Of a DNA stretch of 64,000 nt, positions 9,783 through 38,185 are shown piece after piece (the first letter of the stretch is position 1; each line of letters opens with the position of its first letter). The notes under the pieces were generated by a model. It had not been told where the DNA came from. It saw only the letters and a program-made list of their open reading frames with translations, and made no database searches. The stretch is from a phage. The translations under genes and the position numbers were made by a program. The stretch is taken from assembly GCA_011911785.1 (NCBI GenBank), contig GCA_011911785.1_4084.1, one strand, 5' to 3'.

Positions 9783-9790
9783 CACACTAA

Positions 9791-22321: not shown

Positions 22322-22619
22322 AGTTACTAGAGAAGATATCATTCTCAAAATAACTGAAGAAAGACAGAAACAAATAGATAATCCAAATACATTATCTGAT
22401 ACACTTAAAACAAAGAATGATTGGGCTTCCTTATGTGCCTATTATCTCTTCGAAGGGGCAACTCGCCCCGATAAGCATGTATCATTCGATGAATTTAGAG
22501 AGTCCTTAATCAAAGCTGGTGCTGTCATTTTGGCAGCCCTTGAAACCAGTTTCGCATTAGAGGATGAGAAATTACAAGAATTAATGTCTGCTTTGGAACA
22601 TAAGAATGACGATAAATGA
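22314..22619 (+). CDS. Hypothetical protein (~101 aa)
   Basis: ORF track 22293..22619; ATG 22314 overlaps upstream stop. Confidence 0.5.
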   Translation: MAKVTREDIILKITEERQKQIDNPNTLSDTLKTKNDWASLCAYYLFEGATRPDKHVSFDEFRESLIKAGAVILAALETSFALEDEKLQELMSALEHKNDDK

Positions 22620-23196
22620 ACTTGATGAAGCAATCAAGGGATTAACTAATACATTTTATAGCGGTGGTGCACAAGGTGCAGACCGCTTTTTCACTTTATA
22701 TGCTATGGAAAATGGTTTTAATGTAATTAACTTTTCATTCAAAAATCATAATCATAGTGTTGATGAAAGTACTATATTAGAAATCCCATCTTATATTTTG
22801 AATGATAGTTCTATTCTACATCAACTAAACATGGCATGTTATTCATTACAACGCCGTGTACCTAAACCTGGCTCGTATGTTTATAATCTATTAGCTCGTA
22901 ATAGATATCAAATTTTAAACACAGAGAGAGTTTATTGTATGGCTTCACTGGCTTCACCTACTCAAGTTAGTGGTGGTACTGCATGGGCTGTACAAATGTA
23001 TATTGACAGTACTGATAATCCTGAAATATACTGCTATGACATTAATGACAGAAAAGTATATTCATATAATCCAGTACTAAAAGAATTCGAAGAAACCGCA
23101 TCAGTACCTAAGCCGCATGGAAATTGGACGGGAATAGGCTCAAGAAATGCACAAGAAAAGCATATGATGCACTTTACAACATTTTTTCAAGGATGA
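22606..23196 (+). CDS. Hypothetical protein, possible Rossmann-like nucleotide-binding (SLOG/DprA-like) fold
   Basis: Motifs YSGGAQGADRFF and VSGGTAWAVQMY; assignment tentative. Confidence 0.4.
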   Translation: MTINELDEAIKGLTNTFYSGGAQGADRFFTLYAMENGFNVINFSFKNHNHSVDESTILEIPSYILNDSSILHQLNMACYSLQRRVPKPGSYVYNLLARNRYQILNTERVYCMASLASPTQVSGGTAWAVQMYIDSTDNPEIYCYDINDRKVYSYNPVLKEFEETASVPKPHGNWTGIGSRNAQEKHMMHFTTFFQG

Positions 23197-24129: not shown

Positions 24130-24136
24130 TAGAAAA

Positions 24137-24162
24137 GGGAGACAAATGTCTCCCTTTTTTTT
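24137..24162. terminator. Bidirectional rho-independent terminator between convergent genes
   Basis: Hairpin gggagac-aaat-gtctccc flanked by A-run upstream and T8 downstream. Confidence 0.75.
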
Positions 24163-26134
24163 ATTTCACGGTTACTAATGTTCTTCCTGCAAAACGAACA
24201 TCAGGAGAAGAAGGAATACTATAAACTACACCAGTTAATGTAAACTTAACACTATCAACATCAACTTTAACAAATTCATCAGTTGCTACTTGTTCTTGAA
24301 TTTCAGCATTAACTATATCAGTTTCTGGAACTGTCAGTCTGTAATATGCACCATCAAGTACCCAATTATCAACAGTGAATAATGTAGTTCTTACTGTACC
24401 AGAACCAATCGGAACCCATTTACCATCAACTTTCTGCATTGATGTTCTATTCTGTTCAGAGTACGCAATCATACCATCAACACCTTCACTGTCATTAACA
24501 GTTGTTAGTACTGGTAATTGGATACCATAACGGTTAATACGTGTACGCAACACATTACTGTCATATATAGATAAATCCGCATAACCACGAACATCCATAC
24601 GCAATTCACCGTTTAGTAGTTTCATATTAATATCGTTGGTAACGTGTGCAAATCTAAATGAATTACCACTGGTTAGCAGGATTCCATTAAAATTATTATT
24701 AGCATTGTTAAAATTAGTTTCTTTATTAAACGTGGACACCGAGTTAACTGTTAATAAATTAGTTGAACTACCAGTTCCTAATATAGTATTCCCTTTAACG
24801 TTCAAATTACCATTAGTTGTAACATTTGAAACCGCCGTAACATCACCCGTTAAAGTACTAATACCATCAACTTCTAAGTTTCCATGTAATTTGGTTACAC
24901 CATTTTGCATTTCAACTTGTACTTTGTTCATAGAACTAAATGACAAAATATTATTTTCCCCACTAATACCAACATTTGTATTAGAATTATTAGCAAAACG
25001 TAATGTTGGTGCGGTTGCGGGTGCAGTGGTGCTTTGATATAAATTCAAAGAACCGTTTGTTACTCGCACACGTTCAACACCTGCTGTGGTTAAACCAATA
25101 GCGGCATCTGCTGGGTGGAAAATACCAGTTTTTGTGTCAGTCCATTTACTTGGATCGTTTCCTGGGTTAGTATTTGGGTCATATGGAGCGTTATTAAAGC
25201 CTATAGCTGGCTCTGTAGCACTACCATAAGTTACCCCTAGTCTTCCTTTGCCTATCAGTCCATCATCAACCATAGAGTCACCAGTGCGGCGTAAGCCCTC
25301 TAATACGAGGTTATCTAAGGTAGTTTGAACTGTACCTGCGTTGGTACTGAATTGACGTTGACTACCAACCATGATAGTGTTATCATACAGTACTGAAGAA
25401 GCTGAAATACTAGCTCTTGACTGACGTAGGCGAATGTTTTTAGTTTCAGTGATGATAATCCAGTCACTATCAGCTAATGCAGTTTGGCCTTGTGGTGTCA
25501 AAGATGTATCAAAAGGTGTAGTGATTGATTCGTCTTGTGCCAAATTCACAAGACCTTCATGACCACTTGCTGGGATTGCAGTTGTTACAATACGAGCAAA
25601 CGCATAACTTACCAATTTTTTAGTTGGTTCAATTGGGTTTTGATCTATATAATATAGAATTTCAATCCAATCACCTTGACCAGTTGGGTTCACTGGTGTG
25701 AATTTAACTGGGCTGGTTGTAGGGGTATTTTGTGTATAGTGCTCTTGTGCGGCATCCATAATACCACGAACTACATAATAATCACCATTCAAAGAAACTG
25801 ATGGTGCAGGTAATGCAGCATAGGATGCTGGTGGGTTTGTATCATCTTCAATTGCATCATATGTACCAAGGAATTGCAATCCACTTGTTACAGAATCTGG
25901 TAATTGAGATGACAATAGTTTACCATTTGCATCTAGGTTTGCAAAACGTCTATACGCAACTGAACCATCTTCAAATTCGAGAACACCTTCGAATGCTTTC
26001 CATTCAGTGTTGTATCGAATCATACCTGTACGCATTTGGTCTGCTGTTACTATCGTTGGGGCTTTTGGTAGTTCAAGGAATGCTTTGCTATCTATGATAA
26101 CACCACCATCACCACGAATTCTATTAATTGACAT
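24161..26134 (-). CDS. Tail fibre protein (657 aa)
   Basis: ORF track; Thr/Asn/Gly-rich repetitive C-terminal half typical of fibre shafts; first gene of the fibre block. Confidence 0.5.
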   Translation of the reverse strand: MSINRIRGDGGVIIDSKAFLELPKAPTIVTADQMRTGMIRYNTEWKAFEGVLEFEDGSVAYRRFANLDANGKLLSSQLPDSVTSGLQFLGTYDAIEDDTNPPASYAALPAPSVSLNGDYYVVRGIMDAAQEHYTQNTPTTSPVKFTPVNPTGQGDWIEILYYIDQNPIEPTKKLVSYAFARIVTTAIPASGHEGLVNLAQDESITTPFDTSLTPQGQTALADSDWIIITETKNIRLRQSRASISASSVLYDNTIMVGSQRQFSTNAGTVQTTLDNLVLEGLRRTGDSMVDDGLIGKGRLGVTYGSATEPAIGFNNAPYDPNTNPGNDPSKWTDTKTGIFHPADAAIGLTTAGVERVRVTNGSLNLYQSTTAPATAPTLRFANNSNTNVGISGENNILSFSSMNKVQVEMQNGVTKLHGNLEVDGISTLTGDVTAVSNVTTNGNLNVKGNTILGTGSSTNLLTVNSVSTFNKETNFNNANNNFNGILLTSGNSFRFAHVTNDINMKLLNGELRMDVRGYADLSIYDSNVLRTRINRYGIQLPVLTTVNDSEGVDGMIAYSEQNRTSMQKVDGKWVPIGSGTVRTTLFTVDNWVLDGAYYRLTVPETDIVNAEIQEQVATDEFVKVDVDSVKFTLTGVVYSIPSSPDVRFAGRTLVTVK

Positions 26135-26215
26135 TATTGACTATCCTCATACAATTATATCAAGTATTTATTTTAAGAAAAAGAAAAGGCCAACCATAGT
26201 TGACCTTAGTGTTTA

Positions 26216-27004
26216 TTAATTACGTACTGGGATCTTAGATTGATCTGGATATACAAAAGTTGCTGCTTTTTGTGCATCAAAAATAGTAGTTGCTGCATCA
26301 ATTGCAGTTTGTTGTGCAGTTGCTGCATCAAAGTAACCGTCGATTTGTGCCAATAGACCATTGAAAATTTCAACCATCTCATCACCATCAACTGTTACAA
26401 TCTCACCACTATCTAGATAGATATTAATAGTTTGGGAGCCATTAATCGCTTGTGTATAATAGTTGTTTAACATCTGACGACCATTAACATCACTAGGGAA
26501 TGTTACATCAACTGTTCCGTCAGCATTTTTATAATGATAACCACTATTAATTAAATTATCTCGTTCATATGCGGTTCTTTGCTTCAAATCAGCTTTAACA
26601 TCAGCCAAATCCATATCAATGTAGGTTTGTGTTTTTACTGCTGTTAATGCTGCATATGGTGCTACTTCGGTTTCGTTAAATGTAACTACTGCATCACCTT
26701 CAATTTTGCGATATTCAAGGTATTCACCCTTTGAATTTCTATCACCAACAGATACATATTCTAACCACCAAAATCCTTCTTTCTTGCGAACTTCATCAGC
26801 ATTTTGTGGGATTACTGCATTTGGGGTTATTTTTATTCCATACAATGGTCTAATATCACTATATGTGTAATGATATTTACCATTAGGATCATTGGGTGGT
26901 TGTGGACTAAATGAAAGACCTTTTACATTTTTTGGATTTGAAATAATGCTTCCTAGTTTATAATCTGCTGTTGAACTACCACTTACATATGTAAATTGAG
27001 CCAT
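26216..27004 (-). CDS. Hypothetical tail-fibre-associated protein (262 aa)
   Basis: ORF track; embedded between fibre genes. Confidence 0.4.
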   Translation of the reverse strand: MAQFTYVSGSSTADYKLGSIISNPKNVKGLSFSPQPPNDPNGKYHYTYSDIRPLYGIKITPNAVIPQNADEVRKKEGFWWLEYVSVGDRNSKGEYLEYRKIEGDAVVTFNETEVAPYAALTAVKTQTYIDMDLADVKADLKQRTAYERDNLINSGYHYKNADGTVDVTFPSDVNGRQMLNNYYTQAINGSQTINIYLDSGEIVTVDGDEMVEIFNGLLAQIDGYFDAATAQQTAIDAATTIFDAQKAATFVYPDQSKIPVRN

Positions 27005-27075
27005 AATATTACCTCATTAAAAATTAAATTATTTACAAAGAGGTACAGGAAAAATCCTGTACCAATTATTTTATA

Positions 27076-30000
27076 TTAAGCAGTACGTTGAGCAATAAAC
27101 ATATCTACTACTGGACTGTATCCATCATAAATCAACTGAACGATACTCACTCCACCTGGATTTGTGTTAATTTCACCACCAACGTTTGCATAAGTTCCGT
27201 CCCAATCAAAACTATGTCCACCAGTTGTATCTTGTGCGACATAGATATAATAAGAACCAGCTTTACCACTACCAATTAAACCAGTTATTGGTGTCATCAT
27301 TACGTTTTGATCTAGTGTTATATAATACACATTTGATAGACCATCTGGTGTCCAATTACCACCAACAGCAGCAGTACTTGCAGTAACTTTAGGTGATGGA
27401 GTAACAGCATACTTTTTAGTAGTTACACTTTCAGTTACTAAATCAGCAATATCTGTATGTAGTGTACCTTCAATAGTTACATCTTTAGCAAATGTTGCAT
27501 TTTCAGCAAATGAAGATGTACCAGTAACTGTGATTGCATCAGCAGACGCAGAACCTAGTGTTACAGCACCTTTAAGGTTAGTAGCACCAGTAATTGCTGC
27601 ACCACCCGCAACTACATTGAAGCCACCCGCAGTGATTTCGATACCACCAGTACTAACAGTTAGTTTCTTACCGATAGTAACAACATCAGATAGTGTAGTT
27701 GCACCAGTAACTGCTAGAGTTGTGTTAATCTTAGCACTTGCCATAGTTGCTAGGCCAGAAGTTGTAATAGTTGCAGTAGTTACTGCACCAGACGCACTAA
27801 CGTTTGCACCAGACACATCACCAGTTGTAGTGATTGCACCATCACCAGCGTTGATTGTAGCACCATTAGTTGCAATACCACCTTTCAAAGTACTCAAACC
27901 TTCAGCAGTGATTGTTGAACCAACTGTTAGGGTTGTACCAGCAGCGATAAAGGTTGTAGAAGTTAGAGATTTAACTTCGACTGCACTTGCAGATTGGTCC
28001 AGTGTACCAATAATCTTACCACTAACAGTAAAGTCGCCAGTAGTTACTGCGTTACCATTAACAGTTAGGCTGTTAGCTGTTGAACCTTGTGCACCGAATG
28101 TTGCAGCACGTGCGTGCATATCTTCATCAGTAGTAATATTCTCAACTGCGTGAATTGTGGTATTAGAAGTTAATGAGTTCAGGGAAATATCCTGACCACC
28201 CAAATCTACTGCACCGTTAATATTACCAGCAACAAATAGGTTACTACCAATATAAGTATCACCAACAAATTGGATAGTTTCCGGTCTTGAACTAACTTTA
28301 GGACCGATGATAATACCTTTCGCAGAAATATCAGCTTTAGGCATAGTCACAGTAGAAGCATCAGAGATGTTCACGGATGCACCATTAACAACCAAAGCAC
28401 CACCAACAGTCAAACCAGTAGTTACCGCTGCACTACCAAATGTACCTTTACCAGTTGTGGTAATTGAAGTACCAGTAATGTCACCAGCAGCAGTGATTGC
28501 GGTATTTGCACTAACAGCCAAACCACCAGTTAGAGTGCTTAGACCAGTAACTTCTAGTGTTTCTCTGGATTTCAAGCTTTTCGCATCAACTGGAGTAGTA
28601 GATAGATCCAATGTTCCAGGGTTTAGTGTTCCATTAATGGTAACATCACCAGAAACTGTTAGTGAACTGAGAGCAGCTTCACCAGCGGTTAGTTTTCCAG
28701 TTAGATTTGTAGTACCAGTAACAGCCAAAGCACCACCAGCACTTAGAGCACCAGTAACTTCCGCACTACTTAATGTAGCTTTACCACTTGTTGAAAGAGT
28801 AGTAGTGTTAGTACCACCATTTAGAGTTGAAACACCAGTAACAGTTAGTGTAGTACCAGCAGTTACAGAACCGAGTGCAGTTAAGTTAGCACTTGCATCA
28901 ACACCTTCAACGTTTAGAACAGCAGAACCTAAGTTTAGGCTACCTTCAGGTGTAAATGCACCTTTAACAGTTAGGTCACCAGTAACAACTGCATCACCTG
29001 AAACATCAACACTTGCTAGTGTTGCTTTACCAGAAGTTTGAAGAGTTGCGGATTGAACTTCACCAGTAGTTTTGATTAATGCAGAACCTGCATCAACACC
29101 ACCAGATAGAGTACTTAGTCCAGTAACACCTAATGTTTCACCAATTGTCAAATAACCACCAACAGTTGCATCATTATCAACAGCTACACCAACACCAGTA
29201 GCACTTACTTGGATTGATTTAGAAGTAATTTTACCACCAACATCAACAGTACCATCAAAAGTTGCAGCACCTACAGTATGTAGGGTTGAACTTAGTGTAG
29301 TTGCACCAGAAATTGTTGGAGCACCAGTAATTGTACCAGTAGTTAGAATTAGGTCAGTACCAACAGTAGTACTTGTAGTACTTGCTAATGAGTTAGTTTC
29401 CAAATCAGCATTTGTGATAGTCAAGTTACCATCGATAGTAACGTCATTATCAACTTGTAGTGATTTAACAGTCAAATCAGTTGTACTAAAATCAACGGAA
29501 GTTGCAGTGAAAGCACCTTCAACGTGCAAATCACCAGTAACATCTGTTGGTTTAGCTAGTGTTATTTTATCTCCAGCACTTGTGTATGAACCAGCACTTA
29601 CTGAACCATCAACCACTGCCGCAGCAGCAACTTTCAAGTTTCCAGAAGCAACAGTCAAGCCACCTTTAGCAGTAATACCACCGACGTTTACAGTTACTGC
29701 GTTACCAAATGTTGAAGCACCAGTAACTTCAAGTGCACCAGAAACGGTCGCTTTACCACCGACTGTTGCATCACCAGTAACATTCAATTTACCAGCGGTT
29801 GCTTCAGTACTTGTTAGTTTTGGTAGAATACTTGGTTCAGTATTTTCAGTAACAGTAATAACACCAGAAGAAGTTAGTGATTTAACAGTTAGATCTGCCG
29901 CAGCAGCATTAATTGCACCATCAACAGTTAAGCTTCCACCAATGGTTGCACCTTCAGTTGTTGTTAATGATTTAGAACTGATATCAACTGGGCTTAAATC

Positions 30001-32613
30001 TAATCCACCTTCAGGTGTAAATGTACCTTTAACAGTTAGGTCACCATGTGCAACTGTATCATTTTCTAAATTAATACCATCGGTATTAACAATAGAAGGA
30101 GTAGTTACAGAAACAGCAGAAACAGCAGCCAATGTACTTTCACCAGTAACATTTAATGTAGAAATGTTTGCTGTAGTTACTGTTGCTGTACCAGTTGTAC
30201 TGTTAGTTGTAGTAATATCAGTACTTTGTAATTTTGGTAGAATGTTAGTTCCAGTAGCATCATTACTAATCACAGGACCAGCACTAGTTAAAGATTTAAC
30301 ACTTACATCTGCTGCACTTAAATCTACAGTACCATCAACAGTTAGGTTTCCACCTACATGTGCACTTTCAGATACATCAAGTGTTTTAACAGTTACATCA
30401 GCCGCACTTAGGTCAATAACACCAGCCGTTAAAGTTCCAGTAACATTCAAATCACCACCAACTGATGCATTATGATCTACACTTAGACCAGTTCCGGTTC
30501 CGGTAATTTGTGCGGAAGCTGCGGTCACTTTAGTAGTTGCTGTGATATTTGGGGCAGTGATAGTACCGTCAGATTCAATTGAACCAGTTTCTAATGCATC
30601 AGAACCAACACCAGTAACTTTACCAGTAACTTCAACTTTCAAGCCACTAAAGAGTGCGTTTCCACCAACACTTAGATCAGTCCCCACTGCAACTTCTTCA
30701 GTTGTGGTTACAGAATTAGGTAGAATGTCTAGACCATCAACGTTTGCTTTAATTGCAGCACCAGATAGTGTACCAGTAACGTTTAAATCTTTAACAGTGG
30801 TTGTTTGACCAACAACTTCAAATAAACCATCAACTACCGTGTTACCAACCAATGTGGTAGTACCGTCAACGGTTAGGTTTCCAGATGCAGTTACGTCAAC
30901 ACCTTTAACATTACCAGATGCAGTTACATCTTTAGGAGTAATGTCTTGACCAGCTAGTGTAATACCAGTTGTAGTTCCAGTAACAGTCAAATCAGTTATA
31001 GTTGTGCCTTTTAGAACGGAATCCCCATCAACTGTTAGTGTACCAGAAGCATCTAGATTAACACCACTAATATTACCAGAAGCAGTTACATCTTTAGGTG
31101 TAATATCTTGACCAGAAATGTCAGGAACAAAACCAGTAACTGTACCAGTGAAATTAACGTCTTTGAATTGAGCCTTACCATCCACATCTAGAGTTAATGT
31201 ATTTGGATCTTGTACCGCATTACCAGTTATTTTCAAATAATCAAATAGGTTCAAACCTTTTGCTGTAATACCGTAGGTAGATGCAGATACATCACCAAAT
31301 GTAGCAGTTTTCAGTACTGTTAGATTTGCTGGGGTCATTAATTCGGACTGTACTTCGTTTTGTAGAATTACAGTTGGACGTAAACCAGGAGCAGTATATG
31401 TAAAGTTAACTTTAGCATTCGTGTCTGCTACGTTTCCACCTAAAGTGACAGATTTTAAATTAGCATTCGCAGTTGAACCAACAATATTAGATTCTAGGTT
31501 TAATGCACCTTTTAGTGTAGTTAGTTTTTCAACAACTAAATTATCCGCAGTAATATCACTTAGTACAAAGTTACCTGATAGTGTTCCAGTAATATCCAAA
31601 TCACCAACAGTAGTTTTACCAGTAATATTAGTAGTTCCATCAACTTGTAGGTCAGTTAATTGTGTTTTACCTTTAGTTACACGTAGAATTGGTGTGGTTG
31701 GATCTTGTATTGAGTTACCAGAAAGTGTTAGGTAATCAAATAGGTTCAAACCTTTTGCGGTAATACCATTGGTTGCTGCTGATACATCACCAAATGTAGC
31801 AGTTTTAAGTACTGTTAGATTTGCTGGAGTCATTAGCTCTGACTGTACTTCGTTTTGCAGAATTACAGTTGGGCGTAATCCTGGAGCAGTGTATGCAAAG
31901 CCTAGGCGTGCAGTCGAGTCCGCTGCATTAGAACCCAAAGATACAGCTTTTAGGTTTGCTACAGTATTAGTACCAATGATGTTTGATTCTAGGGTTACAG
32001 CACCTTTTAATGTAGATAGTTTTTCAACAACTAAATTATCGGTATTAACATCCCCTAATGTGAAATCACCATCTAATTTACCAGTTACAGTTAGATTCTC
32101 AACGGTTGCACCAGTTGCAGTAATATCAGTTGCTGATACAGTTGCAATGGTTGCTTCATTAGCAGTTAATTTATCAAAGCTTGCAGTGGTTGCTGCCGCA
32201 GCAGTGAGGTTACCATTTAATGTTGTTGTACCATTAACTTCTAATGCAGAAGTGGTGGTATCTTGAAAAATTGCTTTTCCTGATGTTTGTGTAATATCTT
32301 TGGCAAAAGTAGAAGTGCCATTAAAAGTAGCATTGGAATTAATAGTTGCTGTATCGGAACCAGCAGTAGTATTACCAATAACTGTATTGCCAAGTACATC
32401 CATTCCACCCTTAAGTGACGCTTTGCCTGTAACATCGAGTGTTGTGTTGATTGTTGCTTGATCTACTGTAATTGCAGTGAAGGTAGCATCAGCGAAACTA
32501 ACGGTCCCCTTAATGGTTACGTTTTTATCGAAGACCGCATTACCTTTAACTGATAATTCTTTACCAACATTAGTATTACCAGTTACTGCTAGATCTGTTT
32601 TTATCGAGTACAT
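27076..32613 (-). CDS. Giant repetitive tail fibre/adhesin-like protein (1845 aa)
   Basis: ORF track; T/G/S/V/A-rich beta-strand repeats, internal tandem duplications. Confidence 0.6.
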   Translation of the reverse strand: MYSIKTDLAVTGNTNVGKELSVKGNAVFDKNVTIKGTVSFADATFTAITVDQATINTTLDVTGKASLKGGMDVLGNTVIGNTTAGSDTATINSNATFNGTSTFAKDITQTSGKAIFQDTTTSALEVNGTTTLNGNLTAAAATTASFDKLTANEATIATVSATDITATGATVENLTVTGKLDGDFTLGDVNTDNLVVEKLSTLKGAVTLESNIIGTNTVANLKAVSLGSNAADSTARLGFAYTAPGLRPTVILQNEVQSELMTPANLTVLKTATFGDVSAATNGITAKGLNLFDYLTLSGNSIQDPTTPILRVTKGKTQLTDLQVDGTTNITGKTTVGDLDITGTLSGNFVLSDITADNLVVEKLTTLKGALNLESNIVGSTANANLKSVTLGGNVADTNAKVNFTYTAPGLRPTVILQNEVQSELMTPANLTVLKTATFGDVSASTYGITAKGLNLFDYLKITGNAVQDPNTLTLDVDGKAQFKDVNFTGTVTGFVPDISGQDITPKDVTASGNISGVNLDASGTLTVDGDSVLKGTTITDLTVTGTTTGITLAGQDITPKDVTASGNVKGVDVTASGNLTVDGTTTLVGNTVVDGLFEVVGQTTTVKDLNVTGTLSGAAIKANVDGLDILPNSVTTTEEVAVGTDLSVGGNALFSGLKVEVTGKVTGVGSDALETGSIESDGTITAPNITATTKVTAASAQITGTGTGLSVDHNASVGGDLNVTGTLTAGVIDLSAADVTVKTLDVSESAHVGGNLTVDGTVDLSAADVSVKSLTSAGPVISNDATGTNILPKLQSTDITTTNSTTGTATVTTANISTLNVTGESTLAAVSAVSVTTPSIVNTDGINLENDTVAHGDLTVKGTFTPEGGLDLSPVDISSKSLTTTEGATIGGSLTVDGAINAAAADLTVKSLTSSGVITVTENTEPSILPKLTSTEATAGKLNVTGDATVGGKATVSGALEVTGASTFGNAVTVNVGGITAKGGLTVASGNLKVAAAAVVDGSVSAGSYTSAGDKITLAKPTDVTGDLHVEGAFTATSVDFSTTDLTVKSLQVDNDVTIDGNLTITNADLETNSLASTTSTTVGTDLILTTGTITGAPTISGATTLSSTLHTVGAATFDGTVDVGGKITSKSIQVSATGVGVAVDNDATVGGYLTIGETLGVTGLSTLSGGVDAGSALIKTTGEVQSATLQTSGKATLASVDVSGDAVVTGDLTVKGAFTPEGSLNLGSAVLNVEGVDASANLTALGSVTAGTTLTVTGVSTLNGGTNTTTLSTSGKATLSSAEVTGALSAGGALAVTGTTNLTGKLTAGEAALSSLTVSGDVTINGTLNPGTLDLSTTPVDAKSLKSRETLEVTGLSTLTGGLAVSANTAITAAGDITGTSITTTGKGTFGSAAVTTGLTVGGALVVNGASVNISDASTVTMPKADISAKGIIIGPKVSSRPETIQFVGDTYIGSNLFVAGNINGAVDLGGQDISLNSLTSNTTIHAVENITTDEDMHARAATFGAQGSTANSLTVNGNAVTTGDFTVSGKIIGTLDQSASAVEVKSLTSTTFIAAGTTLTVGSTITAEGLSTLKGGIATNGATINAGDGAITTTGDVSGANVSASGAVTTATITTSGLATMASAKINTTLAVTGATTLSDVVTIGKKLTVSTGGIEITAGGFNVVAGGAAITGATNLKGAVTLGSASADAITVTGTSSFAENATFAKDVTIEGTLHTDIADLVTESVTTKKYAVTPSPKVTASTAAVGGNWTPDGLSNVYYITLDQNVMMTPITGLIGSGKAGSYYIYVAQDTTGGHSFDWDGTYANVGGEINTNPGGVSIVQLIYDGYSPVVDMFIAQRTA
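31205..32060. repeat. Internal tandem duplication (~494-bp period, 2 copies) inside the 1845-aa fibre gene
   Basis: tcaaataggttcaaaccttttgc...gtactgttagatttgctgg...cttcgttttg recurs at ~31241 and ~31735 with high identity; protein segments TAPGLRPTVILQNEVQSELMTPANLTVLKTATFGDVSA duplicated. Confidence 0.7.
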
Positions 32614-32687
32614 TCATTTCCCTCCATTTGGGTAAAATTAAAATACTTATTAACTGTGTTAATATGTAATTATTTATTTGTATATAT

Positions 32688-32720
32688 GAAAAAGCCAGGC
32701 ACTAAGACATCATACCTGGC
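32688..32720 (-). terminator. Candidate terminator on minus strand
   Basis: Stem gccagg/cctggc at 32695-32720 with long loop, U-run on minus strand. Confidence 0.4.
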
Positions 32721-32727
32721 ATAAATC

Positions 32728-33630
32728 TTATTTCCCAGCGATAACAATCTTACCACTGAATTGTTCATCAGATACAAAAGTAACATTACCATCTGTATCA
32801 ATTTGTGTATCCACGAATACCAAATCAAACGGTGCAGATGCTGTTGAACCAGGTACATCATTACCATAGATTGCCACGTACAAAGAATCAGGACTTTGTT
32901 TATGTGTATCAGCAGTGACAGTGTAAGTGAATTTATCAGCAGCAGCAATCCAGTCTGCTTTGTTAATCAATTTTCCGTATGGGGTAGTCATAGCGGTTGC
33001 TCCTATAATATTAACTTTAACCTCAGTAATACCATCTGGGAGGCCAAGCATTTTAATTGTAATATCCCCAAATCCAGACACTGTAATTTCGGAATTAACC
33101 ACACTACGAATATTTGGATTACCGTCTGTTGGTGTATCTTCCATTTGAACTAAAATGTCACGACCACGGTCATGTTGTGATTCAGGAATGGTATATGTAT
33201 ATTCATCGACTGTTCCAGGAATAAGAACAAATGCTGCAACTGGGACAGAGAATGAAGTTACATAAGGACTATCGGTTACTGGACCACCACCATTAAATGG
33301 TTTCCAAATCCCAAGGTCTTTAATATATATTTGAACGATGTTGGTTGCATCAACCATAAAATAAACATCACCATCAGTTCCTAGTGTATCAGCAGGAGCG
33401 ATATCACCACGCAAAATACCACTTGCACCACTACCACCATGAGCATTAAAATATGCTAAGGTTACTAGGTGTGTGTTTGCGGTTGGGTCACCAGCAGAAA
33501 CCGGAAGAAGTCTTGTTCCAGAATAATCTTGGATTTGCACAATATCACCATTTGTTGTGAATTGTGCACCATTTTTACCTAGAATAAATTTCTTCTTCAA
33601 AGTTCCTTCTAAATTAGAAAAAACTGCCAT
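32728..33630 (-). CDS. Receptor-binding tail fibre/spike protein (300 aa) sharing N-terminal adaptor with next gene
   Basis: N-terminus MAVFSNLEGTLKKKFILGKNGA nearly identical to that of 33648..35819. Confidence 0.5.
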   Translation of the reverse strand: MAVFSNLEGTLKKKFILGKNGAQFTTNGDIVQIQDYSGTRLLPVSAGDPTANTHLVTLAYFNAHGGSGASGILRGDIAPADTLGTDGDVYFMVDATNIVQIYIKDLGIWKPFNGGGPVTDSPYVTSFSVPVAAFVLIPGTVDEYTYTIPESQHDRGRDILVQMEDTPTDGNPNIRSVVNSEITVSGFGDITIKMLGLPDGITEVKVNIIGATAMTTPYGKLINKADWIAAADKFTYTVTADTHKQSPDSLYVAIYGNDVPGSTASAPFDLVFVDTQIDTDGNVTFVSDEQFSGKIVIAGK

Positions 33631-33647
33631 TTTGAAATATCTCCTTA

Positions 33648-35819
33648 TTATGGAAGTGTAATGTATGTAATTGGGGATTCGGCTAACAATGGAGTCCCAT
33701 CAGGGAAAGCAGTTTTTATTTCGTCTGCTATATCAATGCAAAATACCGAGTTGACCACGTATGTAGCTCGTGTTATATGAGTGTGGAGATCAGTCCCATT
33801 TTCACCAGCACCAGGAATTACAATTCTTGTACCTGCTGCTTTAGCATATTGGTTTGTACCCCATGCAGTGTTATGTGTTCTAATAGTTTTAGCACCAACT
33901 ACTGCTGCTTTAAGCTGTTCATATTTTCCTACGAATGCACCAGCTACTGTTACTACATATTTACCCCCAGATTGTTTGTGTAAAATTGTTCCTTTGGGGA
34001 AATATCTACCACCTGGGAATTCATCATAAGGTAGATAATATTGCTCCGTGACTGGTATCAGTACTGGGCCACGGTGACCAGTTCCATCTATTTCAGTTGT
34101 TACCGTGAAGTTATTACCAGATTGATCTATTCTATCAACATACATTCGTGAGAATGAATAATTTGATATATTAGCGTCATCTTGAACTATATTACCAATC
34201 CAACTGGTATATGTATAATTAGTTCTGGTATAAACGCCACCACCTTCACCATCTTGATATTGACCAATTACATCTAAATTTTTTGTATAAATTTTACTGA
34301 ATTTTGATGATGATGGTAATCCACGCCAATATAATTTTTCACAAGTTATATTGTGCATATCAGTTTCGTTAGTCCATGCGTTTGCACCGGATGTGTATAT
34401 TTCTATACTAGATTCAGGAATGAAAACGTTTTGAACTTTAAAATCTTTTGGTGGACCTGCATACCATGCATATTGGTGTGTTGCATCAGCAGGGTTAACA
34501 CCCCATGTAAATTTAATCATTCTGTTTGTTGGTGCAGTTGCTGGATCATCCAAATAGCGACCAGTTAATCCGTCAACAACAAAATCTTGACATCCATAAG
34601 TGATGATACCTGCGGCAGTTAAGCCAGTTCCAGTTGATATTGTGGTTGATGGAAATGTCTCATTATCTATTATATTAAAATTCTTACCGACTTCAACGTG
34701 TATACATTGACGACAGTTATATACTCTATTTCGAGCAATAGTGAAGTTTTTAACATATTGACTATCTGGAATATCAACTCCATATGGACCTTTACCAGCA
34801 ACACCGATACCGATACCCCAGTTTGATAATGGGATTGGAGCGTTAGTACCATCAACGTTTTCAATATGGTTTCCTTCAATGATTAGACCATCAGTGAAGT
34901 GTCTTGAAACTACGTTTAATTCAATACCATCACCATAGATATCGTGAATATGGTTATATGCATAGCGAGCATATTTTACTATCTCACCACTACCACCTTG
35001 CTGTAGAACACCAAAGTTAACATCGTACATTTCATTGAAACAAAAGTCGAGAATACCTTCTGAAGTTAAATCACGCATAAAGAATGCACAGGTGAATGTT
35101 GTACCATAGAAGCGGTTGAAATAGAACTTACCATTACCACCAGAAAACTGAATATAACTACGAGCAATGTTTGCCCCTTGTATTTTACAGTTGGTTGCTG
35201 ATATCATTGTTTTACCAGTGCCAGTTAATGTGCCACCATACCATTCAATATTTTCAAAATATATTGCTTTGGATAAACGATAAACACCTTTACCTTGTAT
35301 TTGGATATCATGAGCTTTAGCGTAATCAGCACAAGCTTGAACTGCGTCAGTATCATCAGCAATACCATCACCGATAGCACCAAATTCTTCAGGTGTTATA
35401 TAATACAAAGCTTGTTGTAGTGTTCCACCAGAAACCAAACCAATATAATCAGAACCATTAGTACTGGATAATACTTTAGTATTAACATACATTGATTTTA
35501 TCCATGCACCATTCTTCTTAGCGAAAATATCTAGGATACCACCACTTTCTTGGTCTAATTGCAAATAAGTATAATTATTCTTACCAAGACTATTATCTGG
35601 GATTTCATTCCCAAATAATACGGTTGGGTGGTCAGCGAGATACTTTGCAGTAATCGCTGAATTATCATTAATCGGTTCACCAACTTGTACGGGCAATAAG
35701 ATGCTTCCGAAACTATCTGTAATAGACAGGGAATTGTTAGCATAATTAATTAATGCCCCATTTTTACCAAGTATAAACTTGGTTTTCATTGTCCCTTCAA
35801 AGTTAGAAAAAACTGCCAT
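33648..35819 (-). CDS. Tailspike with parallel beta-helix, depolymerase-like (723 aa)
   Basis: N-terminus MAVFSNFEGTMKTKFILGKNGA; central repeats with NHIHDIYGDGIEL, IIEGNHIENVDG, RNRVYNCRQCIHVE typical of pectate-lyase-fold spikes. Confidence 0.6.
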   Translation of the reverse strand: MAVFSNFEGTMKTKFILGKNGALINYANNSLSITDSFGSILLPVQVGEPINDNSAITAKYLADHPTVLFGNEIPDNSLGKNNYTYLQLDQESGGILDIFAKKNGAWIKSMYVNTKVLSSTNGSDYIGLVSGGTLQQALYYITPEEFGAIGDGIADDTDAVQACADYAKAHDIQIQGKGVYRLSKAIYFENIEWYGGTLTGTGKTMISATNCKIQGANIARSYIQFSGGNGKFYFNRFYGTTFTCAFFMRDLTSEGILDFCFNEMYDVNFGVLQQGGSGEIVKYARYAYNHIHDIYGDGIELNVVSRHFTDGLIIEGNHIENVDGTNAPIPLSNWGIGIGVAGKGPYGVDIPDSQYVKNFTIARNRVYNCRQCIHVEVGKNFNIIDNETFPSTTISTGTGLTAAGIITYGCQDFVVDGLTGRYLDDPATAPTNRMIKFTWGVNPADATHQYAWYAGPPKDFKVQNVFIPESSIEIYTSGANAWTNETDMHNITCEKLYWRGLPSSSKFSKIYTKNLDVIGQYQDGEGGGVYTRTNYTYTSWIGNIVQDDANISNYSFSRMYVDRIDQSGNNFTVTTEIDGTGHRGPVLIPVTEQYYLPYDEFPGGRYFPKGTILHKQSGGKYVVTVAGAFVGKYEQLKAAVVGAKTIRTHNTAWGTNQYAKAAGTRIVIPGAGENGTDLHTHITRATYVVNSVFCIDIADEIKTAFPDGTPLLAESPITYITLP

Positions 35820-35832
35820 TAATCAATCCCCC

Positions 35833-36960
35833 TTAGATGTTGTTTTCAATTGGTTGGATTGGTGCTTGCCATGCTAGAGTACAAATTACTTTCATTTGAC
35901 CATAATTACTGTTATTAACTGATTCATTAAAAACACAAGCAATGATTTCATCTTCTGCTGACGGTTCATGGTTTGTTTCATTAACGATAAAGCGTAGTGC
36001 ACGGTTGATATCAAAATAATCAACTGGTGCAATAATAGTACCACCGATATCTTCTTGTGCTTCCCCACCTACACGAATGTGCATTTCAGTTACAGGGTCA
36101 ATATAAGCTTGGGTGATATCAACTTCAATATTAGTTACTACATAACCTGCTGGGCATGTACCGATTACCAATACTGCGTTGGTCCATGAATGATCAATCG
36201 TGTTTACAACGATAATTGAATCTTTACCATTCTGACCCGGATCACCTTGCTTACCTTCTGGACCAGGTTCACCATCTTTACCACGGAACTCAATACCTTC
36301 ACTCCATTCTTTTGTTGGAGGGGTGGTTTGCTTATTAATATCTACGTAATATAGTTTTCCATCAGTCGTGTTATAGAAGCAATAATCTTCTGGTAAGTTA
36401 TCAATACTTGGGAAAGCAGGACCATCACTGTCAATATGGAAACGACCACGTGGACCTTGTTCACCACGGAAATCAATACCATTACTCCATGAACCAGCTT
36501 TTTGATTATAAAAATACACTTTACCATCGGAAGTATTATAGAAAGTGTATTGGTCAAATAGACCAGTGGTTGGGAAAACAGGACCAGAAGAATCAATTTT
36601 AAATGATTTACCTGGTGCACCAGTATCACCTTTACCAAATTCTACTGTGTTCCAAGTACTTGGTGCTACACCAGCATCATTTGTTTTAAAATATAGTTTT
36701 GCAGTTCCATTTGCTAGACTTAAATAACACCAACCTTCTGGTTTATCAACTGCAAATGTACCGTCTGGTATTTCCATACCAACATCATCAGGATAGAAAT
36801 TTTTACCATTAGTACCGTCATGTCCAACGACTAGACCCAAATCTTGTATTGTATTATCAGCGAATGTTACAATCAAATGACCAGCAGAGTTAATTACTAA
36901 ACTCTTAATACCAGAATTGTTACATGAACCGCCAGACCCATTGTTGAATGAAATTGTCAT
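35833..36960 (-). CDS. Tail fibre protein with short collagen-like Gly-X-Y segments (375 aa)
   Basis: GEQGPRGRF, GKDGEPGPEGKQGDPGQNGKD. Confidence 0.5.
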   Translation of the reverse strand: MTISFNNGSGGSCNNSGIKSLVINSAGHLIVTFADNTIQDLGLVVGHDGTNGKNFYPDDVGMEIPDGTFAVDKPEGWCYLSLANGTAKLYFKTNDAGVAPSTWNTVEFGKGDTGAPGKSFKIDSSGPVFPTTGLFDQYTFYNTSDGKVYFYNQKAGSWSNGIDFRGEQGPRGRFHIDSDGPAFPSIDNLPEDYCFYNTTDGKLYYVDINKQTTPPTKEWSEGIEFRGKDGEPGPEGKQGDPGQNGKDSIIVVNTIDHSWTNAVLVIGTCPAGYVVTNIEVDITQAYIDPVTEMHIRVGGEAQEDIGGTIIAPVDYFDINRALRFIVNETNHEPSAEDEIIACVFNESVNNSNYGQMKVICTLAWQAPIQPIENNI

Positions 36961-37567: not shown

Positions 37568-37576
37568 GGATTGGAA

Positions 37577-38185
37577 ATGAAATTAGAAACAGAACAACCA
37601 AAACTGTTCGTTAAGGGTCATGTACTAATTACTGACGTTACTGATCCTGCGAATGAAAAAATTGTGCTCGATAAATCGAACGCAATTCACCCAGAAAACA
37701 TGAGTACTGCAATCGCTAACGCACTAGCATATAACCAAGATAGTTCTGGTATCCCAGTTGGTTCAATATCAGAAATGCGTTTTGGTAACGGTGGTACTGT
37801 AGTATTGAGTACTGGACGTGTAACATACAAAAAACCACGTGTAACTTCATTTGGTGGTCTATATTCACAAACATATTTGAAGAAAATAAACCCACGAATC
37901 TCAAGTAGCATTGATTCACAATATAATAACATCACAACTGTTCATATTCCAGGTCAAGCATACACCGATATCGTTTGTATTTGTACTTTGGGACTAGGTG
38001 AACCAGTAGACCAGAATACAAGTTCAAGTACTAACATGGACGGTACTTACGTATTTGATGAATTGGGTTTATATACTGATGGTGATAATGGTATGCCGTT
38101 ATCTCATATTATTTTCCACCCAGTAGAGAAAAGTGCGAACCGTGTTTTACAAATAAAATATACTGTTCGTGTACAACTACAGTAA
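37577..38185 (+). CDS. Hypothetical protein (~202 aa)
   Basis: ORF track 37571..38185; ATG 37577 after AAGGA. Confidence 0.5.
   Translation: MKLETEQPKLFVKGHVLITDVTDPANEKIVLDKSNAIHPENMSTAIANALAYNQDSSGIPVGSISEMRFGNGGTVVLSTGRVTYKKPRVTSFGGLYSQTYLKKINPRISSSIDSQYNNITTVHIPGQAYTDIVCICTLGLGEPVDQNTSSSTNMDGTYVFDELGLYTDGDNGMPLSHIIFHPVEKSANRVLQIKYTVRVQLQ

What the first reader, a model, noticed from the sequence alone, without database searches (positions are those of the whole stretch)
24161..36960. Multi-receptor-binding-protein locus with shared N-terminal adaptor and a depolymerase-like spike
Six consecutive - strand genes encode fibre/spike-like proteins. Two of them (32728-33630 and 33648-35819) begin with almost the same ~20 residues (MAVFSN[L/F]EGT[L/M]K[K/T]KFILGKNGA) but have different C-termini, a hallmark of modular receptor-binding proteins attaching to the same docking site. 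The 723-aa one contains parallel beta-helix repeats typical of polysaccharide depolymerase tailspikes. This suggests a branched, multi-specificity adsorption apparatus.
Basis: partly seen in the sequence, partly recalled or inferred. Interest (0 to 1): 0.6.

Follow-up and report, generated by a model that had tools for sequence, protein, structure and literature searches.

The report
Jumbo-phage tail-fibre locus with colanidase spike
This is the tail-fibre gene cluster of a known giant E. coli phage, in which a sugar-degrading spike has been grafted onto a copy of its neighbour's anchoring domain; this is a familiar way for phages to add a host-recognition tool, so the finding is real but largely ordinary.

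Summary
The window is 99.6% identical to Escherichia phage A4, an Asteriusvirus (RaK2-like jumbo myophage). The six minus-strand genes exist as described.

**Confirmed:** The 300-aa and 723-aa proteins share a homologous N-terminal module of about 110 aa, not just 20 (39% identity, E 2e-18). Residues 1-22 match at 19 of 22 positions. Eight of those conserved codons differ only synonymously, which points to selection rather than recent gene conversion.

**The spike:** Residues 104-722 of the 723-aa protein are 54% identical to Phi92 gp150. That protein is a solved tailspike (PDB 6E0V) reported to degrade colanic acid.

**Where the interpretation falls short:** The other five genes are a cassette conserved across RaK2-like genera infecting different hosts:
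- a collagen/jelly-roll tail protein;
- the 300-aa anchor plus Ig-like protein;
- a long fibre of about 1,800 aa with a phiTE-type C-terminus;
- a DUF4376 fibre chaperone;
- a 657-aa fibre-like protein.

Only Asteriusviruses carry the extra colanidase. RaK2 keeps the bare 115-aa anchor.

**Wider support for the adaptor idea:** The first ~65 residues of the module also head beta-helix, S74-chaperone and sialidase-like proteins in uncultured phages.

**Verdict:** The adaptor reading is supported. [quoted passage not shown] is not shown. This is a new member of a known kind, of modest interest.

The parts
35833..36960 (-). 375-aa conserved 'tail protein' (A4_572). N-terminal beta region, two ~55-aa repeat units, a collagen-like G-X-Y stretch (residues ~227-246) and a C-terminal jelly-roll domain (248-375).
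33648..35819 (-). 723-aa colanic-acid-degrading tailspike (A4_571). It is a chimera of the N-terminal anchor module (residues 1-~107) and a Phi92 gp150-type body (residues 104-722).
   Evidence: PDB 6E0V_A, E 6e-216, query 104-722 against chain 17-623; 54% identity over 605 aligned residues. PHROG 6117 'colanic acid degradation', E 5.8e-229. Precomputed Pfam PF27800 WcaM. gp150 is described as a colanidase in PMC13450770 and PMC11126041.
35499..35819 (-). N-terminal anchor module of the 723-aa protein (residues 1-107).
   Evidence: BLASTP against the 300-aa protein, E 2e-18. Only two copies in the window. 59% identical to the 121Q gp573 N-terminus, 33-40% to all p300 orthologues.
32728..33630 (-). 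300-aa conserved virion protein (A4_570): anchor module (residues 1-~112) plus two Ig-like beta-sandwich domains (~123-300).
33301..33630 (-). N-terminal anchor module of the 300-aa protein (residues 1-110).
   Evidence: Columns invariant across 44 orthologues are concentrated in residues 1-21: M1 A2 F4 S5 N6 G9 T10 F15 G18 K19 G21.
33565..33631 (-). First copy of the 67-nt direct DNA repeat covering the start codon and the first 22 codons (second copy at 35754-35820).
   Evidence: 82% identity. Of the first 22 codons, 11 are identical, 8 differ only synonymously and 3 change the residue.
35754..35820 (-). Second copy of the 67-nt direct repeat, at the 5' end of the colanidase gene.
27076..32613 (-). 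1845-aa long tail fibre (A4_569), rich in T/G/A/V, with internal repeats including a 495-nt x2 tandem duplication at 31238-32215.
   Evidence: PHROG 4549 'tail fiber protein', E 1.3e-179, 8 stretches. TRF and repeat families. Composition T 18%, G 12%, A 11%, V 10%. Homologues in 80 phage records.
27088..27609 (-). C-terminal domain of the long fibre (residues ~1669-1842), phiTE_241-type.
   Evidence: PDB 9CUY_g 'putative tail fiber protein' of the flagellotropic phage phiTE, E 1.3e-26, chain residues 631-792. Precomputed Pfam PF26209 Phage_phiTE_241_C.
26216..27004 (-). 262-aa DUF4376 protein (A4_568), the probable chaperone or cap of the long fibre.
   Evidence: Pfam DUF4376, E 2e-7, 31.9 bits against a cut-off of 25, residues 136-241. 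Lies directly downstream of the fibre gene. DUF4376 proteins are fibre or RBP chaperones in Alteromonas phages V22/A5 and Campylobacter phage F341. It is the most divergent gene of the locus together with the fibre: 49% and 50% against 121Q.
24161..26134 (-). 657-aa conserved fibre-like structural protein (A4_567).
   Evidence: PHROG 14293, function unknown, E 6.8e-279. No PDB hit by sequence or profile. Orthologues in all genera examined, including RaK2 ORF060w, which lacks roughly residues 351-450. Residues 221-361 align to the neck region of adaptor-bearing ~1200-aa BNR proteins: hhalign probability 90%, E 1.5e-6.
27042..27063 (-). Terminator-like hairpin between the fibre gene and the DUF4376 gene.
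   Evidence: This is a consensus scan only (10 sites found against 7.1 expected by chance).
26186..26207 (-). Terminator-like hairpin between the DUF4376 gene and the 657-aa gene.
24131..24160 (.). 13-bp-stem hairpin between the convergent thymidylate synthase and 657-aa genes; probable bidirectional terminator closing the locus.

Best explanation
The locus is the conserved peripheral-tail (long-fibre) module of RaK2-like jumbo myophages. It sits inside the tail/baseplate gene block.

**Ancestral form (five genes):**
- a trimeric collagen/jelly-roll tail protein (375 aa);
- a small virion protein made of an N-terminal anchor module plus two Ig-like domains (300 aa);
- a very long beta-structured fibre with a phiTE-type tip (1845 aa);
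- the fibre's DUF4376 chaperone (262 aa);
- a second fibre-like protein (657 aa).

**What Asteriusviruses added:** a sixth gene between the first two. A diverged paralogous copy of the anchor module was fused to a Phi92 gp150-type colanidase body.

**Inferred mechanism:**
1. The anchor module plugs its carrier into a conserved socket on the baseplate periphery. Its invariant first ~22 residues are probably the key contact.
2. The virion therefore carries an enzyme that strips colanic acid from mucoid E. coli.
3. The conserved long fibre, and possibly the 657-aa fibre, do the actual receptor binding. By analogy with relatives, that receptor may be the flagellum.

**Shown:** the homologies, the chimeric architecture, the synteny and its lineage distribution, and selection on the N-terminus.

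**Inferred:** docking at the baseplate, enzymatic activity, and the receptor of the long fibre.
For: **Identity and context**
- 99.6% identical to phage A4, genus Asteriusvirus.
- Neighbouring genes include tail sheath, three tube paralogues, a gp15-like sheath stabiliser, a gp6-like wedge and a gp5-like hub.
- The orthologue of 37571-38185 is annotated 'baseplate protein' in fEgEco12.

**Chimera**
- N-module homology, E 2e-18.
- The body matches 6E0V at E 6e-216 from residue 104 onward, with 54% identity.
- gp150 is reported to hydrolyse colanic acid.

**Lineage distribution**
- All Asteriusvirus records have two N-module copies. GAP32, CBB, Munch, fENko-Kae01, XaC1, BF and the Erwinia and Yersinia phages have one, always the ~290-aa protein, at the same syntenic place.
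- RaK2-type Klebsiella phages have one copy, a 115-aa module-only gene annotated as a virion structural protein.

**Age and selection**
- The colanidase modules of the A4-like phage and 121Q are 59% identical to each other. They are only 33-40% identical to every p300 orthologue.
- Residues 1-22 stay 19/22 identical despite 8 synonymous-only codon differences.
- Eleven of the first 21 positions are invariant in 44 orthologues.

**Generality of the adaptor**
- A profile search of 1.84 billion representative proteins gave 212 hits.
- Residues 1-~65 occur only at the N-terminus of proteins with Beta_helix, Peptidase_S74, or BNR plus CBM5_12 bodies.
- Two such proteins lie in one locus of an unrelated contig and share only their first ~175 aa.

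**Other parts**
- Fibre and chaperone.
- Virion presence of the orthologues of four of the genes, from LC-MS/MS notes in the fENko-Kae01 record.
- Faster evolution of the locus than its flanks.
Against: - No structural or interaction evidence places the module on the baseplate. The AF2 monomer model of the module is only moderately confident (pLDDT 48-85, with 50-63 in residues 41-70) and matches no known anchor domain.
- No conserved neighbour that could be the socket was found next to adaptor-bearing genes in unrelated contigs.
- Outside residues 1-22 the two modules are only ~30% identical. They may therefore bind different sites or partners rather than one shared site.
- Colanidase activity is inferred from 54% identity to gp150; it was not tested, and catalytic residues were not compared.
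- The flagellum link rests on relatives and on a shared C-terminal fibre domain, not on A4 itself.
- The placement of gp150 on the Phi92 virion is itself unresolved.
Confidence: 0.7

Rival explanations
1. The six genes are all receptor-binding proteins of different specificity. The 300-aa and 723-aa proteins are alternative RBPs that compete for, or share, one docking site, giving a branched multi-specificity adsorption apparatus like CBA120 TSP1-4 or RaK2 gp526-534.
For: - Shared N-module with unrelated C-termini.
- The locus diverges faster than its flanks.
- A related genus has an experimentally documented branched multi-depolymerase fibre (PMC10253068).
- Some Asteriusviruses and XaC1 carry a second long-fibre gene here.
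Against: - The 300-aa protein is conserved over its whole length in phages of at least eight host genera, so it is not a specificity-swapping RBP.
- It models as Ig-like domains.
- The 262-aa protein is a chaperone type.
- Only one enzyme-bearing spike is present in the locus.
Confidence: 0.15
2. The 300-aa protein is the connector that hangs the long fibre, and/or the 657-aa fibre, on the baseplate. The anchor module inserts into the baseplate and the Ig-like domains hold the fibre. The colanidase merely copies this connector's plug. In this version the module-bearing proteins are adaptors rather than RBPs. This refines the best explanation rather than contradicting it.
For: - The 300-aa gene always lies directly upstream of the long-fibre gene.
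- RaK2-type phages of Klebsiella pneumoniae lack the long fibre and the DUF4376 gene. They have also lost exactly the Ig-like C-terminal half of the 300-aa protein, while keeping the module-only gene directly upstream of the 657-aa homologue.
- In uncultured phages the adaptor is fused to ~1200-aa proteins whose neck region is homologous to the 657-aa protein (hhalign probability 90%, E 1.5e-6).
Against: - Co-loss and gene order are circumstantial.
- The hhalign-matched region contains a motif common to many tail fibres, so the fusion argument is weak.
- No interaction was modelled or measured.
Confidence: 0.35
3. The near-identical first ~20 residues are a by-product of recent gene conversion or duplication between adjacent genes, or a shared translation-initiation or chaperone-recognition signal, with no docking role.
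For: - A 67-nt direct repeat at 82% identity lies at both 5' ends.
- The two genes are separated by only one gene length, which would favour recombination.
Against: - Eight of the 19 conserved residues are encoded by different synonymous codons.
- Homology continues for ~110 aa at ~30% identity.
- The same N-terminus is conserved across genera and in unrelated metagenomic tailspikes.
- Upstream sequences are unrelated apart from a Shine-Dalgarno-like motif.
- A shared assembly-chaperone tag cannot be excluded.
Confidence: 0.07

Closest known systems
Phi92 gp150 tailspike colanidase (PDB 6E0V/6E0W); PHROG 6117 'colanic acid degradation'; Pfam PF27800 WcaM
   Same: Residues 104-722 of the 723-aa protein align end to end with the crystallised gp150 fragment (E 6e-216, 54% identity). 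The same family annotation is given in A4, 121Q and PBECO4.
   Different: The first ~103 residues are not Phi92-like. They are a paralogue of the neighbouring 300-aa protein's N-terminus. Phi92 is an unrelated, much smaller myophage, so the body has been moved between attachment systems.
Branched multi-tailspike systems with conserved N-terminal head or anchor domains: CBA120 TSP1-4 and Alcyoneusvirus RaK2 gp526-534 / phiK64-1 S2 proteins (PMC10253068)
   Same: Several tail proteins in one phage carry related N-terminal modules followed by different bodies. A depolymerase is mounted through such a module. The phage clade (RaK2-like jumbo myophages) is the same.
   Different: - Only two module-bearing proteins are present here, and only one is an enzyme.
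- The module has no detectable sequence or fold similarity to the CBA120 D1/D2 or T4 gp10-like XD domains.
- The locus is at a different genomic place from RaK2 gp526-534. RaK2 keeps only a 115-aa module-only gene at the syntenic site.
Long tail fibre of flagellotropic Certrevirus phiTE (phiTE_241; PDB 9CUY chain g; Pfam PF26209) and the long fibre of flagellotropic jumbo phage fENko-Kae01
   Same: The C-terminal ~170 aa of the 1845-aa fibre match the phiTE fibre C-terminus (E 1.3e-26). fENko-Kae01 has the same five-gene cassette and needs flagella to adsorb (PMC11218385).
   Different: The fibre here is more than twice as long as phiTE's (1845 against 793 aa). No receptor data exist for A4. 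Identity to the fENko-Kae01 fibre is only ~31% by tblastn.
DUF4376 tail-fibre chaperones (Alteromonas phages V22 gp27 / A5 gp9; Campylobacter F341_034)
   Same: A C-terminal DUF4376 domain in a gene immediately downstream of a fibre gene.
   Different: In fENko-Kae01 the orthologue is detected in virions. It may therefore stay attached, as the Alteromonas 'transient cap' does, rather than acting only during folding.

Membership tests
Phi92 gp150-type colanidase tailspike (PHROG 6117 / Pfam WcaM PF27800) | End-to-end sequence homology of the catalytic body to gp150 | tested here: met
   phmmer against PDB: 6E0V_A, E 6e-216, query 104-722 against chain 17-623. 54% identity over 605 residues. PHROG 6117, E 5.8e-229. 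Precomputed PF27800 hit.
Phi92 gp150-type colanidase tailspike (PHROG 6117 / Pfam WcaM PF27800) | Trimeric right-handed beta-helix fold | not tested
   No model of the 723-aa protein was built; the two structure jobs went to the 300-aa and 375-aa proteins. The fold is inferred from homology to a solved tailspike, and from short matches of the helix-cap motif to CBA120 TSP1 (4OJ5) and a GH55 beta-helix enzyme (5M5Z).
Phi92 gp150-type colanidase tailspike (PHROG 6117 / Pfam WcaM PF27800) | Hydrolysis of colanic acid | not testable with these tools
   Activity is reported for gp150 itself (Xu et al. 2025, as cited in PMC13450770). A4's protein has not been tested.
E. coli WcaM (colanic acid biosynthesis protein, NCBIfam TIGR04004) | Score above the equivalog cut-off | tested here: not met
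   84.5 bits against a cut-off of 794.6; only residues 263-418 match. The protein is related to WcaM but is not WcaM. GenBank labels of 'colanic acid biosynthesis protein' on orthologues are misnomers.
CBA120 / RaK2-type branched multi-tailspike complex | Two or more tail proteins of one phage share a homologous N-terminal module with different C-terminal bodies | tested here: met
CBA120 / RaK2-type branched multi-tailspike complex | N-terminal modules have the CBA120 TSP head-domain (D1/D2) or T4 gp10-like XD fold | tested here: not met
CBA120 / RaK2-type branched multi-tailspike complex | An organiser protein with several branching (XD) domains onto which the others dock | tested here: inconclusive
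   None of the six proteins hit such a domain in Pfam, PHROGs or NCBIfam. The rest of the genome, and structure-level searches of the 657-aa and 1845-aa proteins, were not examined.
CBA120 / RaK2-type branched multi-tailspike complex | Physical co-assembly on the virion | not testable with these tools
   Needs cryo-EM, immunogold labelling or pull-downs.
DUF4376 tail-fibre chaperone | DUF4376 domain above Pfam's gathering score, C-terminal, gene directly downstream of a fibre gene | tested here: met
   31.9 bits against a cut-off of 25, residues 136-241 of 262. The gene starts 71 nt after the fibre gene's stop. Precedents.
phiTE_241-type long tail fibre (Pfam PF26209) | C-terminal domain homologous to phiTE_241 | tested here: met
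   9CUY_g, E 1.3e-26, query 1669-1842. Precomputed PF26209 hit.
Pfam PF27114 Phage_tail_beta (reported on two metagenomic proteins that share the adaptor) | Recorded Pfam hit on the protein | tested here: not met
   The precomputed table lists PF27114 for P0098 and P0106. It lists none for the window's 300-aa protein and only WcaM for the 723-aa protein. The model is absent from the local Pfam copy, so where it maps within the first ~175 residues is unknown.

The most novel reading that the evidence does not exclude
The ~65-110-residue N-module is a general-purpose plug for one conserved socket on the baseplate of RaK2-like jumbo phages, and of a wider set of uncultured phages. Evolution then loads it with different cargo:
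- bare, in RaK2 (the 115-aa ORF061w);
- Ig-like domains that hold a flagellum-binding long fibre, in most genera;
- a horizontally acquired colanidase, in Asteriusvirus;
- sialidase-like, beta-helix or S74-chaperone fibres elsewhere.

On this reading, the loss of the fibre, its chaperone and the Ig domains in phages of non-motile Klebsiella pneumoniae tracks the loss of the flagellar receptor. The module would then be a ready-made handle for mounting new depolymerases on jumbo phages.
Probability: 0.3. Interest if true: 0.5.

Novelty: new member of a known kind. Interest (0 to 1): 0.3.

Why it matters
Asteriusviruses such as 121Q, PBECO4 and A4 are being characterised as therapeutic candidates, yet their adsorption apparatus is essentially undescribed. 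Papers on Sharanji, JP4 and fEgEco12 list these genes only as structural or hypothetical.

Three results are practically useful:
- The colanidase is mounted through a copy of a conserved neighbour's anchor module.
- That module heads many unrelated spikes in metagenomes.
- The rest of the locus is a conserved, possibly flagellum-directed, fibre cassette.

Together they give a concrete module boundary (about residue 104-110) for engineering spikes onto jumbo phages. They also give testable predictions about receptors: colanic acid as a barrier to be removed, and flagella as the primary receptor.

Conceptually this adds another example to the well-established principle of modular RBP exchange. 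It does not add a new principle.

Tried and rejected
1. **Word-indexed protein search** with the 113-aa module alone returned nothing and cost one of three searches.
2. **PDB sequence and profile searches** for the 300-, 657-, 375- and 262-aa proteins found no meaningful homologue.
4. **Recent gene conversion** as the cause of the identical N-termini was rejected on codon evidence.
5. **Search for a common neighbour (candidate socket)** next to adaptor-bearing genes in unrelated contigs L007 and L009: BLAST found no homology to any window protein beyond the adaptor itself.
6. **Promoter scan** was uninformative: 36 sites found against 50 expected by chance. No claim is made about transcription units beyond the hairpins.
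7. **Similarity between the module's second half and the repeats of the 375-aa protein** was marginal by BLAST (E 0.01-0.1). It is left as a lead, although the profile search shows that residues ~66-112 belong to a widespread repeat often found with collagen repeats.
8. **Which phiTE fibre is chain g of 9CUY** could not be established from the paper text.


Full report
**What the window is.** Megablast of 24161-36960 finds Escherichia phage A4 (ON286972.1, 355.5 kb, genus Asteriusvirus, host E. coli LF82) at 99.6% identity over the whole stretch. Other Asteriusviruses (121Q, PBECO4, G17, Sharanji and others) match only in pieces, at about 72%.

The six minus-strand ORFs listed are CDS A4_567 to A4_572. 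They are annotated as structural protein, structural protein, long tail fiber proximal subunit, structural protein, colanic acid-degrading protein and structural protein.

The surrounding genes are tail genes:
- tail sheath (7119-9782);
- three tube-protein paralogues (10178-12830);
- a T4 gp15-like sheath stabiliser (39802-41145);
- a gp6-like wedge (55127-58591);
- a gp5-like hub/lysozyme (59623-62286).

The locus is therefore part of the tail/baseplate morphogenesis block of a RaK2-like jumbo myophage.

**Checking the observation.** The N-terminal similarity is genuine.
- BLASTP aligns residues 1-109 of the 300-aa protein with residues 1-106 of the 723-aa protein (43/111 identities, E 2e-18). 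Nothing else in the two proteins aligns significantly.
- tblastn finds only these two copies in the 64-kb window.
- Identity is very uneven: 19/22 in residues 1-22, 29% in 23-65 and 30% in 66-116.
- At DNA level the first 22 codons form a 67-nt direct repeat at 82% identity.
- Among those 22 codons, 11 are identical, 8 differ only synonymously and 3 change the residue.

The near-identity is thus maintained at the protein level over a long time and is not a recent gene-conversion tract. In an alignment of 44 orthologues of the 300-aa protein, invariant columns cluster in the same place: M1 A2 F4 S5 N6 G9 T10 F15 G18 K19 G21.

**The 723-aa protein.** Residues 104-722 align end to end with chain A of PDB 6E0V, 'Bacteriophage Phi92 gp150' (E 6e-216), at 54% identity over 605 residues.

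The literature describes gp150 as a tailspike colanidase. PMC13450770 cites work showing that it hydrolyses the beta-1,4 glucose-fucose linkage of colanic acid. PMC11126041 calls it 'tailspike colanidase gp150 (PDB 6E0V)'.

PHROG 6117 'colanic acid degradation' matches residues 88-721 (E 5.8e-229), and a precomputed Pfam WcaM hit is on record. The NCBIfam WcaM equivalog is matched only partially and far below its cut-off. The protein is therefore a relative of WcaM, not a biosynthesis protein.

The depolymerase-spike reading is correct, and this part is already annotated in public records. The new point is that the protein is a chimera. Its first ~103 residues are a paralogue of the neighbouring gene's N-terminus, and the junction lies at about residue 104-110.

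**The 300-aa protein.** A search of 5.8 billion proteins gave 71 clusters. All but one (a 203-aa cluster covering 72% of the query) are 284-309 aa long and cover 100% of the query, at 41-100% identity.

The AF2 model (pLDDT 80.8) shows:
- a moderately confident N-module, with small beta-sheets at residues ~14-34 and ~72-111 joined by a low-confidence linker;
- two confident beta-sandwich domains at ~123-300.

This is a conserved small virion protein. It is not a fibre, a spike, or an RBP with a swappable tip.

**Comparative anatomy of the locus.**

| Phage group | Genes between the '375-aa tail protein' and thymidylate synthase |
|---|---|
| GAP32, CBB (Mimasvirus); Munch; fENko-Kae01 | ~290-aa module protein; ~1,560-aa long fibre; ~210-aa DUF4376 protein; ~645-aa protein (no colanidase) |
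| 121Q and all other Asteriusvirus records; a few Salmonella relatives | The same, plus the colanidase: two N-module copies per genome |
| RaK2, K64-1 and related Klebsiella pneumoniae phages | One copy only, as a 115-aa module-only 'virion structural protein' (ORF061w). It lies between the tail-protein orthologue and a shortened 657-aa homologue. No long fibre or DUF4376 gene |

Xanthomonas phage XaC1 also keeps the module protein and the tail-protein orthologue. It has an extra reverse-strand gene between them and a second large gene before its long-fibre gene; its record was cut before the end of the locus.

tblastn with the long fibre finds 80 phage records, and none is a K. pneumoniae alcyoneusvirus. 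Some Asteriusviruses, such as fEgEco12, have a second long-fibre gene.

In an identity matrix, the colanidase modules of the A4-like phage and 121Q are 59% identical to each other but only 33-40% identical to every p300 orthologue. The p300 modules are 52-82% identical among themselves. The colanidase's module is therefore an old, diverged paralogue and not a recent copy.

**How general the adaptor is.** A two-sequence profile of the module was searched with HMMER against 1.84 billion representative proteins and gave 212 hits. The module splits into two parts.

- *Residues 1-~65.* These match only at the extreme N-terminus of proteins with very different bodies:
  - a 705-aa protein with Pfam Beta_helix;
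  - a 780-aa protein with the Peptidase_S74 intramolecular chaperone;
  - several 1,200-1,370-aa proteins with BNR/sialidase-like propellers and CBM5_12;
  - short forms of 113-205 aa.
- *Residues ~66-112.* These match 4-12 times per protein in many large proteins, often interleaved with collagen repeats. This part is a widespread repeat unit. The 375-aa neighbour has the same flavour (collagen stretch plus repeats), but direct similarity is marginal.

The 705-aa and 780-aa proteins lie 6 kb apart on one 120-kb contig and share only their first ~175 residues. This repeats independently the pattern seen here: two spikes with one N-terminus.

The precomputed Pfam table names PF27114 'Phage_tail_beta' on those two proteins but not on the window's proteins. 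I could not inspect that model.

**The other genes.**

*The 1845-aa protein* is a T/G/A/V-rich repeat fibre.
- PHROG 'tail fiber protein', E 1.3e-179.
- A 495-nt x2 internal duplication and several repeat families.
- Its last ~170 residues match the 'putative tail fiber protein' of the flagellotropic myophage phiTE (9CUY_g, E 1.3e-26; Pfam PF26209).

*The 262-aa protein* has a C-terminal DUF4376 domain above Pfam's cut-off. It lies directly downstream of the fibre gene. This is the arrangement described for fibre or RBP chaperones in Alteromonas phages V22/A5 and Campylobacter phage F341.

*The 657-aa protein* has no PDB relative. Residues 221-361 align with the neck region of the adaptor-bearing ~1200-aa BNR proteins (hhalign probability 90%, E 1.5e-6), and its C-terminal part gives a BLAST match (E 2.7e-6). 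It is therefore fibre-like.

GenBank notes for fENko-Kae01 flag the orthologues of the 375-, 300-, 1845- and 262-aa proteins as detected in virions by LC-MS/MS.

Against phage 121Q, flanking genes are 78-92% identical. The six genes are 73, 63, 64, 50, 49 and 65% identical, with the fibre and its chaperone the most divergent. This is the signature of host-interaction genes.

**Mechanism proposed.**

*Shown:* the colanidase is a fusion of a diverged copy of the neighbour's N-module with a Phi92-type body. The fusion is specific to Asteriusvirus and a few close relatives. The module's first ~22 residues are under strong purifying selection. The same N-terminus heads unrelated spikes elsewhere.

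*Inferred:*
1. The module anchors its carrier to a conserved site on the baseplate periphery.
2. The colanidase degrades colanic acid so that the phage can reach the surface of mucoid E. coli.
3. The long fibre, folded with or capped by the DUF4376 protein, provides primary receptor binding.

*A further inference* (rival 2 in the report, about 0.35) is that the 300-aa protein is the connector for the fibres. RaK2-type phages lost the long fibre, its chaperone and exactly the Ig-like half of the 300-aa protein together. They kept the bare module next to the 657-aa homologue.

*The receptor of the long fibre may be the flagellum.* Three lines point that way:
- fENko-Kae01, which has the same cassette, fails to adsorb to non-flagellated mutants (PMC11218385).
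- The Asteriusvirus SHEFM2K is reported, second-hand, to use flagellar structures.
- The fibre tip is of the phiTE type.

That K. pneumoniae is non-motile is established knowledge, and it fits the loss of the cassette in RaK2. All of this is analogy; no data exist for A4.

**Comparison with known systems and novelty.** The principle that several tail proteins share an N-terminal anchor while carrying different bodies is well established for CBA120 TSP1-4 and for RaK2/phiK64-1. The colanidase itself is already annotated.

The locus fails the structural membership tests for the CBA120/RaK2 type: no D1/D2 or XD folds and no organiser protein were detected. It therefore works like those systems without demonstrably belonging to the same domain families.

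I found no paper describing the shared module in Asteriusviruses. Genome papers treat these genes as structural or hypothetical.

My verdict is a new member of a known kind. Its picture of 'six RBPs in a branched multi-specificity apparatus' is not supported. Interest is modest (0.3). The most novel reading still open is the 'universal plug' with lineage-specific cargo that tracks host motility (probability about 0.3).

Noticed in passing
window 10178-12830 (+): Three consecutive genes (227, 258 and 364 aa) all match tail tube protein PHROGs (4542, 4542, and 13438 plus 4542). That is three tube-protein paralogues in tandem, which is unusual for a myophage.
   Followed up: no
window 59100-59588 (-) and 59623-62286 (-): A free-standing 162-aa ORF matches positions 727-885 of the baseplate hub / tail lysozyme PHROG 13211. 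The adjacent 887-aa hub protein covers that same profile in full. This looks like a duplicated stand-alone lysozyme domain next to the hub gene.
   Followed up: no
window 45068-55075 (-): A 3335-aa virion structural protein (PHROG 10938, no functional annotation) lies next to the gp6-like wedge gene. It is a candidate giant fibre or tape-like component.
   Followed up: no
window 31238-32215 (inside the long-fibre gene): A 495-nt unit repeated twice (72% matches), i.e. a ~165-aa tandem duplication near the N-terminus of the 1845-aa fibre. Several shorter repeat families occur further along the gene.
   Followed up: partly
L007 1431-3773 and 10001-12118 (Logan contig SRR18476386_53, 120 kb): An unrelated uncultured phage carries two tail proteins: 780 aa with Peptidase_S74 and 705 aa with Beta_helix. 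Both start with the same adaptor as the window's proteins and share only their first ~175 aa. Both carry the precomputed Pfam hit PF27114 'Phage_tail_beta'.
   Followed up: partly
L002 9001-9348 (RaK2 ORF061w) and 9513-11045 (ORF060w): RaK2 encodes the anchor module alone, as a 115-aa virion structural protein. The next gene is a 510-aa homologue of the 657-aa protein that lacks roughly residues 351-450 (the repeat-rich fibre segment). The long fibre and DUF4376 genes are absent.
   Followed up: partly
window 24161-26134, protein residues ~20-55; P0108/P0121/P0165/P0218 residues ~1100-1135: The N-terminus of the 657-aa protein carries the motif 'LELPKAPT...GMIRYN...FEG'. Near their C-termini, the adaptor-bearing ~1200-aa BNR proteins carry 'IPVGTTAQRP...GM(I/M)R(Y/F)N...YEV'. 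This is the same short motif in opposite positions of the protein. Its meaning is unknown.
   Followed up: no
L014 5163-15967 (Escherichia phage fEgEco12) and L013 9888-18333 (Xanthomonas phage XaC1): Some relatives have two large fibre-sized genes in tandem at this locus where the window has one. fEgEco12 has two annotated 'long tail fiber proximal subunit' genes. XaC1 has a 1574-aa hypothetical protein followed by a gene annotated 'putative long tail fiber proximal subunit'.
   Followed up: no
window 18512-21315 (+) and 22606-23196 (+): An ATPase plus VWA-domain gene pair and a DprA-like/DUF2493 gene sit between the tail genes and thymidylate synthase. These are non-structural genes embedded in the structural block.
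   Followed up: no
GenBank records of Asteriusviruses: Orthologues of the 723-aa spike are variously labelled 'colanic acid biosynthesis protein', 'colanic acid degradation', 'tailspike protein' or 'hypothetical protein'. The 'biosynthesis' label is a propagated misannotation: the NCBIfam WcaM score is far below its cut-off.
   Followed up: yes
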